Below are positions 58,639-61,600 of a stretch of 64,000 nucleotides of DNA, in pieces. The translations under genes were made by a program, and so were the position numbers. The notes below the pieces were generated by a model. The model searched no databases, was not told the DNA's origin, and worked only from the letters and a program-made list of their open reading frames with translations. The stretch's first letter is position 1; each line of letters begins with the position of its first letter. The DNA is taken from positions 29,484,912-29,548,911 of the forward strand of contig NC_092675.1 in assembly GCF_964355755.1 (NCBI RefSeq), given 5' to 3'. The stretch is from Antedon mediterranea. Its lineage: Eukaryota; Animalia; Echinodermata.

Positions 58639-61600
58639 TTACATTGCATACTTTTGAGTCCATTTTCTGGCTTTTGATATGTATTTCTCTTTATTATTTT
58701 TAAATGTTCGAGCAATGTCCGGGACAAGTGGGTCGTCTGGATTAGGGTCATTCAATAAAGAGCATATTGACAGCAACACTATGGAAATAAATAACACAAT
58801 TTGTATTTGGTGGGTACCTGCCTACCAATCAATTTTTGTCTTTGTGGGAATAGTCATAATATCTACTGTAAAGGCCAATTTAGACGAGTGGTAATGGTAA
58901 TAAAAATATTGAATCTATGTCATTTATTATGACCATTTACACAAAACGCAGAGCGGACAGGTGGTTTACGCTCAGAATAGTTACAGATTCTACGTGGGAC
59001 AAGCTACGCAGTTTTCCGCTTACCGTTACTGCTCGTCTGTGTAACGTGACTGGTGAATAGTCCTAAATATAATTATTGAATATGGCTGAATTTATTATGA
59101 TAAATAACCATAAACTAACCTTTAGACGTGGTCAATTCTGGTGACCACTGAGACCGCAGAATGTCTAAACCAATACTACCATTTGCATTGATATTTGGGT
59201 GATAAATTTTTGTTGTGAACGCAACCTAGAATGAGATGAAATAAACATTAATAATTAATATTCATAGCATTCATAAAAAACAACACTTTAAGTTCAACTT
59301 AATAAATGTTTGAGAAATGTTAAACCCTTTATTTAAACTGCATCTTAACGCATTTAATGGGAGGAGGTGAAATACATTACACTAAATCACATTAAACTAA
59401 ACAAGATTGAAAAATGAAATTTTGTGTTTATCAATTGAAACCGACTTATTTACATTAAATCTAAATGAAACCATTTATTTAGTTTAGTTAGAGTACTGCA
59501 TCTTTTTTACACTGCATACATTTTTACAACTTGTTATAATTTTCAACAAGTTGTACTGTAATGTAACATCTTGTTTTCCCGATTTATTACATGTTTTCAT
59601 ACAAATCTTGGGAGAAAAGTATTGTAATTATACAGTTGAGGGAGCTATTTGATTATTATATTATTAGCATAACATACTGTGATTAAGATAGTCAGTTAAA
59701 TACCAGCACAAACTTGCTTCCTGATGGTGAGATTTTAAACAAAATTTCCCTCACACTAGCACTAACTTGTTACAAGTTGTTACTTTTTTTATGTGATGTG
59801 AAAAGGGCTTTAAATAGACAACCTCTATGGCATAATACTAAATGAGACTAGTCTGGCTGAGTGGAACTTTTAGCTTCATGCATTTGTCCATCTCCATGCT
59901 AATATAACATAGATACAAAAAAAATAATTCTATTCTCAACTTGGTGTCATTACTAAAGCGTGGTTTCCACTAGCGACGCAACCTAACGCAACCCACGCAA
60001 CATAACAAAATGCCCTTCCAATAATTATGTTTGCCCTCGCCTGCGTGAAATCAAACCTGTTTGTTGCGCATCAACATTAGTTAAGTTGCCGTAGACTTTG
60101 ACCTGGTTCACCCTGCATACTTTTGAGTACTCGCTGTACTATGTTTTCCAGTGTTCTCTTGCCATGCGTTGTTGCGTGAAATCAAAATCAAAACGACATA
60201 TCGATGCACTTATGATTATGCAATACAGAACATTACGTTGCGTTCTAGTGGAAACCACGCTTTACTGTAGTGTTTCATACAATTTGCTTACCTTGGGTGG
60301 TTTAAATGGATAATCAGTTGGAAAATCTATAGTTAAAATGAACACACCTCCTGTATAAGGACTGTCAGTCTGAAAACAACAATTATCAATTATTTACTTG
60401 CTTTACTTACTAGAATCCAGGAACTCAAAAACATTGTGGTAAAAATTTATAAATCAAAATTACTTAAAATATTATTGTTTCTCAATTTTAGTTTGATATT
60501 ATTGTTTTCTGATGACATAATACAGCATACTCTCACTGAATAAAAACAATGCAAATGATGACCAATTTCAAGAATACATGTTTTTCTTTGTGCTATGCTT
60601 CATTGAGCAGCTATGAAATACACGTAATCAATAGGGCAAGTCGTCATTTGGACTTTATGTGATGTGCCCATATGAACATGATGTCATATCACTACCATAT
60701 TTGGGAATATTACTACCATATTTGGCCACATCACAACTAGTTTGATAGTGTAGACAGAGCTTTAGAAACCAGCAAAACTCTGTTGATGTGGGGAGCAATA
60801 TTCCTGCATGCACATGGTGGATTAACAAGAAATACTTTAGTAAGTCGTAGGTCGTCGCAAATGAACAGCATCCTATTAAATCCGGTTTAATAAGTTCATA
60901 CTTAATTATCTTAATGAAATACTTACAGGACCCATTATTCTTGCTTGCCAATTAAACACTGCAAGTGAATTGAAAGGTAATTGTTAAAAGAAAGTTAATT
61001 AAATTTTTAATTTAATTTAATTGTAAAATCTTTACAAACGATAGAAAAATAACACATTTATGATACAGAAAATGAAAGATAATGGATGATTCTGTATTGA
61101 TGATGTTATCATCATGTTTGGTTGAGACATATACAATGTATTATTTATTTATGAGTAATAAAGACTTAGTATAGATAGGCCTAGATGAACTTACAATTGT
61201 CTCCCACTGGTCCTGCAGAGCATTTGGGTGGTAAGTCTCTACCTAGATCTTGTAATTCCTACAAACAAGTAAAATAATAATGATCAAAGGATAACAAATA
61301 AAGGGAAGCACAATACCACAATATAAATCATAGTTAGCATCTATTAGTATTATTATTATTGGTAGCCTCTAGTAGGAGTCTAGGCCAGGCCTACTATATT
61401 TATATAATTATATATATTTTATATTTCAAAGCTACTATTATGGGATGGACTTTGATTTGATAGCCTATATCCAACTCTGGTACAATTTACTTCCTTTTTG
61501 TCCATAGCTTGGCTAGGTTCGAAATCTCTCCGGGTCGGCGCTAGACCTACCTACCTACCTATTCTAGGCTGGGTAGACTTTATGCCTAGAATCTCCGACG

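What the first reader, a model, noticed from the sequence alone, without database searches (positions are those of the whole stretch)
59120..59225. Copy D is an intact-ORF E2 lacking the catalytic cysteine (C85G) and with A96E: candidate newborn pseudo-E2 or decoy
Seen: exon 5 reads [30 protein letters not shown] to GGT at 59171, and the SPA loop is SPE. Known: Cys85 forms the ubiquitin thioester in UbcH5; the S94-P95-A96 loop contacts RING E3s and acidic substitution at A96 impairs binding; Cys-less UEV proteins (MMS2/UEV1, TSG101) act non-catalytically. Inference: D could be an independently evolved UEV-like regulator, or a decoy for pathogen proteins that use UBE2D, made harmless to host ligases by losing RING binding.
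Basis: partly seen in the sequence, partly recalled or inferred. Interest (0 to 1): 0.88.

Follow-up and report, generated by a model that had tools for sequence, protein, structure and literature searches.

The report
Fast-evolving dead ubiquitin enzyme copy
A feather star carries a young extra copy of a core ubiquitin-conjugating enzyme gene that has lost its catalytic cysteine but keeps an intact reading frame and has gained amino-acid changes about six times faster than its introns changed, so it is likely a non-catalytic protein being born, although whether it is expressed is untested.

Summary
Observation confirmed on the minus strand. Copy D (58639-63321) is a six-exon, 147-codon UBE2D gene with intact splice sites, GGT at codon 85 and GAA at codon 96. 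It equals RefSeq model XP_071954308.1 of Antedon mediterranea. It is one of the two youngest of four local copies; most non-coding DNA differs from sister C by about 1%. New here: D has 19 private amino-acid-changing substitutions where its intron rate predicts 3 (P 6e-10; only 0.14 against synonymous sites alone). The changes avoid invariant positions (3 of 17, 8.4 expected) except Pro17, Cys85 and Ala96, and 6 of 17 hit the published backside site. Depth in one DNA run fits three real copies; base 59171 itself is only weakly supported. The pathogen-decoy idea is weakened, because A96D also blocks two bacterial ligases. D is not in the Mms2/TSG101 family. Best reading (0.42): a selected, non-catalytic E2 variant with a remodelled backside. 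Close rival (0.33): an adaptive burst followed by death; a LINE sits 262 bases upstream of the ATG. Expression is untested.

The parts
59120..59225 (-). Copy D exon 5 (codons 67-102): HPN motif kept, C85G, A96E, I99T
59169..59171 (-). Codon 85, GGT (Gly) where A, B, C have TGT (Cys)
   Evidence: conservation
59136..59138 (-). Codon 96, GAA (Glu), in the E3-binding Ser-Pro-Ala loop
   Evidence: papers
63298..63321 (-). Copy D exon 1 (ATG; K8T shared with C)
61195..61258 (-). Copy D exon 2 (P17L, A19P, Q20K, D29N)
   Evidence: D letters at codons 19-20 seen in run X1
60927..60958 (-). Copy D exon 3 (H32N shared with C, T36R)
   Evidence: D letter at codon 36 inferred in X1 record 8
60292..60369 (-). 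Copy D exon 4 (P41T, E42D, Q46T, F51I, Q55D)
   Evidence: D letters at codon 55 seen in X1
58639..58778 (-). Copy D exon 6 (R131K, T135I shared with C, T137K, E140K, T147M, stop)
   Evidence: X1 record 3 identical to D over 185 nt
63322..63583 (-). 5' region shared with B and C; 2 differences from C in 262 nt
63584..64000 (-). Likely 3' end of a LINE with a (TAA)n tail, same strand as D, replacing or interrupting the upstream DNA that B and C share; runs off the window
   Evidence: alignment, translation; LINE identity rests on recalled C-terminal motifs, not on a profile search
37982..46050 (+). Copy C, D's sister (= XP_071952780.1); Cys85 kept; 5 private amino-acid changes, 0 synonymous
27548..30663 (-). 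Copy B, likely parent of C and D; Cys85 and Ala96 kept; a spliced B-type contig is present in run X5
12230..21396 (-). Copy A, old paralogue (dS about 1.35 to B, dN/dS 0.05)
56012..63583 (.). Inverted-duplication arm holding D; its partner arm is 37720-48753 (copy C)
   Evidence: self-BLAST; divergence

Best explanation
Copy D is a recent inverted duplicate of a feather-star UBE2D gene that lacks the catalytic cysteine and was likely driven by positive selection into a non-catalytic binding protein. Shown: B, C and D arose by nested inverted duplications; D's frame and splice sites are intact; it carries Gly85, Glu96 and 15 other private residue changes. From established chemistry: with no Cys85 it cannot carry a ubiquitin thioester. 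Inferred: Glu96 (with Thr8 and Thr99) cuts RING/U-box binding, which would stop an uncharged E2 from poisoning host ligases. Inferred: the backside and last helix were rebuilt into a more basic surface (Q20K, T36R, T137K, E140K; net charge +4 against +1 in B) that would weaken ubiquitin binding and bind a new, probably acidic partner. D would then act as a scaffold or competitor through its backside, in a restricted tissue or stage such as germline or immune cells. Partner, tissue and expression are untested.
For: D-only differences: 22 of 420 exon sites against 20 of 2018 intron sites, P 1.6e-7. 19 of the 22 change the amino acid; 3.0 expected from the intron rate and mutation spectrum, P 6e-10. 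Dropping four codons that could be ancestral leaves 15, P 7e-7. On the whole B-to-D path, 24 changes against 8.4 expected from the most diverged flank, P 9e-6. Only 3 of 17 private positions are among the 73 invariant ones, 8.4 expected, P 0.0045 (simulation 0.0023), and those three are functional contacts (Pro17, Cys85, Ala96). 6 of 17 fall in the 15 backside positions listed in PMC4996978, P 0.003; the A-versus-B control has 1 of 18. Q20 and P17 are direct backside contacts (PMC6349121). Three copies at equal depth and D-private exon letters are present in run X1. A cotton UBC domain independently pairs Gly85 with Asp96 (one case).
Against: Against synonymous sites alone the excess is not significant: 19:3, P 0.14 (19:1, P 0.02, if two silent sites that match organism B are ancestral). 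If all B-D flank divergence is put on D's line, P is 0.06. Gene conversion is likely here (B and C share 0 silent differences) and can distort the intron baseline. The backside clustering falls to P 0.03-0.08 if only 90-75 surface positions are the null, and 0.07-0.14 without Met147, which returns to the usual residue. The homologue set was retrieved by likeness to D, which may lower apparent conservation at D's sites. An open frame is weak evidence: about a 10% chance under neutrality. The order of the changes is unknown, so Cys85 loss may be last. A LINE lies 262 nt upstream of the ATG. No partner is identified.
Confidence: 0.42

Rival explanations
1. Adaptive burst, then death. D was positively selected while still an active, specialised E2 (or to blunt the dosage of an extra copy), and C85G and the upstream LINE are recent disabling events. 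It is an incipient pseudogene or a segregating null.
For: Explains the same amino-acid excess. C85G is a single base change. The LINE tail ends D's homology to the upstream DNA of B and C at 63583. Sister C also gathers changes at invariant positions (D16E, A23V) and holds a LINE in intron 1.
Against: An active E2 with Glu96 would have lost most ligase partners, so two separate disabling missense hits are needed while frame and splice sites stay intact. The 262 nt before the ATG differ from C at only 2 sites.
Confidence: 0.33
2. Neutral decay. D is a relaxed duplicate, and the exon excess is an artefact of gene conversion that homogenised its introns.
For: N:S of 19:3 is compatible with neutrality, P 0.14. 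B-D divergence is lower in introns (3.1%) than in the 3' flank (5.3%), and B and C share silent letters that differ from D and organism B, as conversion would give.
Against: The excess survives the flank baseline (P 9e-6) and the most diverged C-D non-coding stretch, 3.2% (P 3e-4). Conversion would have to spare five short exons. Neutral hits would not avoid invariant positions.
Confidence: 0.12
3. Decoy for a pathogen or parasite protein that engages UBE2D, evolving fast in an arms race.
For: Fast change on an exposed surface is typical of conflict (general knowledge). D keeps Arg5, Phe62 and Lys63; Arg5 and Lys63 matter to NleG ligases (PMC2891834).
Against: A96D abolishes E2 use by the bacterial ligases XopL and PUL-1, and NleG uses the same face as host ligases. 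A decoy should preserve the bait surface. A decoy for a backside-binding pathogen protein is not excluded. No crinoid pathogen protein was examined.
Confidence: 0.08
4. Assembly or base-calling artefact: D has Cys85, or C and D are two alleles of one locus.
For: The only X1 contig over 59171 reads the Cys letter. C and D differ by only 0.7-1.2% in four of five non-coding stretches.
Against: That contig matches B at 3 of 3 sites; depth per copy is 13.6-15.6 across 7 of 7 contigs under a three-copy model; its depth fits Gly85 slightly better. C and D lie in inverted orientation with unlike upstream DNA.
Confidence: 0.05

Closest known systems
UBE2D / Ubc4-5 family (UbcH5, Effete)
   Same: 147 aa, about 76-82% identical to typical family members and solved UBE2D structures; HPN, Ser22, Phe62, Ser94-Pro95 kept; Pfam UQ_con E 3e-50; all 50 listed fold hits are UBE2D-type.
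   Different: No Cys85, Glu at 96, five backside residues changed, and an excess of amino-acid change in a family that is normally near-invariant.
COP10 and other cysteine-less E2 variants near UBC4/5
   Same: UBC fold without the catalytic cysteine; PMC4659669 (passages) describes COP10 as such a variant and a UEV group nested in UBC4/5.
   Different: COP10 is an established plant gene acting with DDB1 and DET1; D is about 1% from its active sister in non-coding DNA and has no known complex.
UBE2V1/2 (Mms2/Uev1) and TSG101 UEV domains
   Same: Cysteine-less UBC fold; D keeps Ser22 and Val49, which from recall match the Mms2 ubiquitin-binding Ser27 and Ile57 named in PMC5067413.
   Different: D is nested in UBE2D, has no N-terminal extension for Ubc13 binding, keeps HPN and both C-terminal helices, and does not hit Pfam UEV.
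Sporadic cysteine-less UBE2D-like models in other genomes (cotton MFQ6652137.1, marmot VTJ89727.1, woodrat OBS76872.1)
   Same: Ser or Gly at 85; the cotton domain also has Asp at 96.
   Different: Independent origins, unverified gene models, 52% identity for cotton; none is a D orthologue.

Membership tests
UBE2D active E2 | UBC domain nested in Ubc4/5 by sequence | tested here: met
UBE2D active E2 | Catalytic Cys85 | tested here: not met
   Gly; Cys in 110 of 110 cores
UBE2D active E2 | HPN motif (75-77) | tested here: met
UBE2D active E2 | Ser-Pro-Ala E3-binding loop | tested here: not met
   Glu96; Ala in 111 of 111 cores
UBE2D active E2 | Intact backside ubiquitin site | tested here: inconclusive
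   6 of 15 listed positions differ from B; Ser22 and Val49 kept; binding not measured
E2 variant (pseudo-E2) in the broad sense | UBC domain lacking the active-site cysteine in an intact frame | tested here: met
E2 variant (pseudo-E2) in the broad sense | Folds stably | tested here: inconclusive
   pLDDT 68.0 against 68.2 for a canonical control on the same alignment
E2 variant (pseudo-E2) in the broad sense | Expressed as protein with a non-catalytic role | not testable with these tools
   needs tissue RNA reads, proteomics and binding assays
UBE2V/Mms2 | N-terminal extension with the Ubc13-binding Phe13 | tested here: not met
   D starts like UBE2D with no extension; feature from PMC5067413
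UBE2V/Mms2 | Heterodimer with an active E2 | not tested
   no complex prediction was run
TSG101/Vps23 UEV | Pfam UEV (PF05743) match | tested here: not met
   only PF00179 at E <= 0.001
Unprocessed pseudogene | Stop, frameshift or broken splice site | tested here: not met
   none in 6 of 6 exons; about 10% chance of this under neutrality
Unprocessed pseudogene | Coding change at the neutral rate, spread at random | tested here: not met
   6-fold excess over introns and avoidance of invariant sites; not significant against silent sites alone

The most novel reading that the evidence does not exclude
D is a pseudoenzyme caught at birth: within about 1% non-coding divergence of its active sister, selection removed catalysis, cut the ligase face so that the dead enzyme is harmless, and rebuilt the backside into a new binding surface, giving an expressed, fixed, functional pseudo-E2 independent of all known UEV lineages.
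Probability: 0.35. Interest if true: 0.72.

Novelty: new variant of a known kind. Interest (0 to 1): 0.48.

Why it matters
Known E2 variants are old, and the steps that made them are overwritten. Here parent (B), intermediate (C) and derived copy (D) lie within 36 kb and differ by a countable set of changes, so the order and effect of each step from enzyme to pseudoenzyme could be tested in vitro. It also shows apparent positive selection on one of the most conserved eukaryotic proteins. If D is silent, it remains a clean case of an adaptive burst in a duplicate followed by loss.

Tried and rejected
No whole genome is held, so other copies outside the window were not searched. No RNA holder was listed for the stretch. 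Run X5 (RNA is the tool's guess) holds a contig that joins exon 5 to exon 6 with B's letters (4 of 4 and 10 of 10 differences match B); no D-type contig was listed there, but contigs drop rare variants and that sample may lack D, so this says nothing on D's expression. Runs X6 and X8 (organism B) have no cover at 59171 or at the listed sites of exons 2 and 4, so a Gly85 orthologue could not be sought there. A 234-nt leader for B estimated from the X5 contig was dropped: it assumes collinearity and holds six upstream ATGs. Structure prediction could not separate D from a canonical control. Three homologue searches and one representative search returned no other protein named as crinoid and no D orthologue among the listed rows; UBE2D hits crowd these lists (best 120 of 7994), so this is weak. 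Paper searches listed nothing on this locus; no supplements were read. Exon-only conversion from a cDNA of another paralogue was rejected because the differences are mostly non-silent (19 of 22). CpG or oxidative hypermutation was not favoured: 9 of 22 exon changes are transitions against 85 of 157 in non-coding DNA. No complex prediction was run, as no specific partner is claimed.

Full report
Observation. The stated interval is exon 5 of a minus-strand gene. Four UBE2D-like genes lie in the window, each with six exons, canonical splice sites and 147 codons: A (12230-21396, -), B (27548-30663, -), C (37982-46050, +), D (58639-63321, -). D has GGT at codon 85, GAA at 96 and ACG at 99. D and C equal P0003 and P0004, the RefSeq models XP_071954308.1 and XP_071952780.1 of the feather star Antedon mediterranea, both named 'E2 2-like'. 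These models probably come from the same assembly, so they are not independent support.

Is it real? Four public runs were laid on 58300-61380 as contigs. In X1 a 185-nt contig is identical to D over most of exon 6, and D letters are present at codons 19-20, 36 and 55. Dividing the depth of seven X1 contigs by the number of copies that share their 31-mers gives 13.6-15.6 in 7 of 7, and a fit gives 14.9, 12.3 and 14.8 for B, C and D. Three copies exist at equal dose. The one contig over 59171 carries B's letters at 3 of 3 variable sites, as expected when near-identical copies collapse, so it does not test Gly85 directly. Its depth (34.4) is closer to the Gly model (36.3) than to the Cys model (38.4), with a scatter of about 1.6. 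X1 may be the window's own sample. Organism B (X6, X8) has an exon 6 with B-type letters at codons 131, 135, 137, 140 and 147 and D-type letters at silent codons 114 and 121, so D's exon 6 replacements are derived and those two silent sites are probably ancestral.

History. A and B split long ago (dS about 1.35, dN/dS 0.05). B/C and C/D are nested inverted duplications. C and D differ by 0.7-1.2% in four non-coding stretches and 3.2% in a shared intron 1 insertion. D's homology to the upstream DNA of B and C stops at 63583, 262 nt before the ATG, at a (TAA)n tail followed by what reads as the 3' end of a LINE (identity from recalled motifs). Whether this removed, displaced or replaced the promoter cannot be seen inside the window.

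Selection. Sites where only D differs number 22 of 420 in exons 2-6, 20 of 2018 in introns 2-5 and 6 of 1521 in the 3' flank; columns within 5 nt of a gap were dropped. Nineteen of the 22 change the residue; the intron rate with the local mutation spectrum predicts 3.0 (P 6e-10). Removing codons 41, 42, 131 and 147, which match copy A or the family consensus, leaves 15 (P 7e-7). On the B-to-D path there are 24 replacements against 5.0 (introns) or 8.4 (flank) expected. The weak points: against silent sites alone 19:3 gives P 0.14 (19:1 gives 0.02), and loading all flank divergence on D's line gives P 0.06. Conversion is likely, since B and C share no silent difference. The C branch has 5 replacements and no silent change (P 0.05).

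Where the changes fall. From 223 retrieved proteins, 177 passed a length and identity filter and 112 distinct cores remained; 73 positions are at least 98% conserved. D's 17 private positions include only 3 of them (8.4 expected; P 0.0045, simulation 0.0023): Pro17, Cys85, Ala96. The homologues were found by likeness to D, a mild bias. Six of the 17 (17, 19, 20, 36, 51, 147) fall in the 15 backside positions listed in PMC4996978 (passages): P 0.003 over all positions, 0.03-0.08 over 90-75 surface positions, and 0.07-0.14 on those surface nulls without Met147; A versus B hits 1 of 18. PMC6349121 (passages) shows Pro17 and Gln20 contacting backside ubiquitin and Q20A removing its stimulation; 10.1101/2024.03.10.583603 (passages) places Phe51 under a ubiquitin variant that overlaps that site; PMC6242706 (passages) shows a UBL domain using the same face. 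Ser22 and Val49 are kept. Net charge rises from +1 (B) to +4 (D).

The E3 face. The Ser-Pro-Ala loop binds RING and U-box ligases (PMC9790923, PMC9954413; passages). A96D removes BRCA1 binding (PMC2254412, passage) and abolishes activity with two bacterial ligases, XopL (PMC3554608, passages) and PUL-1 (PMC13728172, passage). NleG ligases use the same general face (PMC2891834, abstract and passages). A96E was not found tested; I infer it behaves like A96D. This supports 'harmless to host ligases' but undercuts 'decoy for pathogen ligases'.

Mechanism. Shown: intact gene, no Cys85, Glu96, excess and non-random replacements. Established: no thioester without Cys85. Inferred: loss of ligase binding prevents a dominant-negative effect, and the rebuilt basic backside binds a new partner. 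I put an expressed, selected pseudo-E2 of this kind at 0.42, an adaptive burst followed by death at 0.33, neutral decay with conversion at 0.12, a pathogen decoy at 0.08 and an artefact at 0.05. AlphaFold gave 68.0 for D and 68.2 for a canonical control on the same 52-sequence alignment, so it says nothing on stability.

Comparison. D derives from UBE2D but fails the active-enzyme test. It is an E2 variant in the broad sense but not an Mms2 or TSG101 family member. Cysteine-less variants near UBC4/5 are known, such as COP10 (PMC4659669, passages). Among 416 UBC domains in 412 of 429 retrieved proteins, 407 have Cys85, 5 have a gap, 3 Ser and 1 Gly; one Ser is an engineered construct, the others are marmot and woodrat models, and the Gly is a cotton domain that also has Asp96. 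Cysteine loss in UBE2D duplicates therefore recurs but is rare. Paper searches listed nothing on this locus; supplements were not read. One earlier scan note on a viral cysteine-less E2 paralogue is an unchecked parallel.

Verdict. A real, unusual young duplicate with a good signal of selection, an unproven function and an open question over expression. New variant of a known kind; interest 0.48.

Noticed in passing
window 37982-46050 (+): Copy C keeps Cys85 but has 5 private replacements and no silent change, including invariant Asp16 and Ala23 on the backside; with D, 8 of 15 backside positions differ from B (P 7e-4 over all positions).
   Followed up: partly
window 39501-42459 (-): LINE with endonuclease and reverse transcriptase matches, in two frames, inside intron 1 of copy C.
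   Followed up: partly
window 35189-36082 (-) and 18136-19747 (-): Reverse transcriptase remnants: one at the centre of the B/C inverted duplication, one in intron 1 of copy A.
   Followed up: no
window 63584-64000 (-): LINE-like 3' end interrupted by a few telomere-type TTAGGG repeats near 63835-63865.
   Followed up: partly
window 3508-3951 (+): Exon of a BTB-BACK (kelch-like) gene, a likely CUL3 adaptor, next to the E2 cluster (Pfam BACK E 3e-11).
   Followed up: no
window 12550-12575 (-), intron 5 of copy A: Short duplication of the end of exon 5 with its own GT, a possible alternative donor.
   Followed up: no
window, many places (e.g. 57470-57634, 60657-60766): A short inverted-repeat element of about 110-165 nt occurs more than ten times and at very high depth in all four runs.
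   Followed up: no
P0131 (Gossypium turneri MFQ6652137.1): Tandem UBC protein with both domains lacking the cysteine; the second pairs Gly85 with Asp96, converging on D.
   Followed up: partly
window 58665-58673, runs X1 and X6: An extra short contig covers these places with no listed difference from D in both organisms; its origin was not resolved.
   Followed up: no
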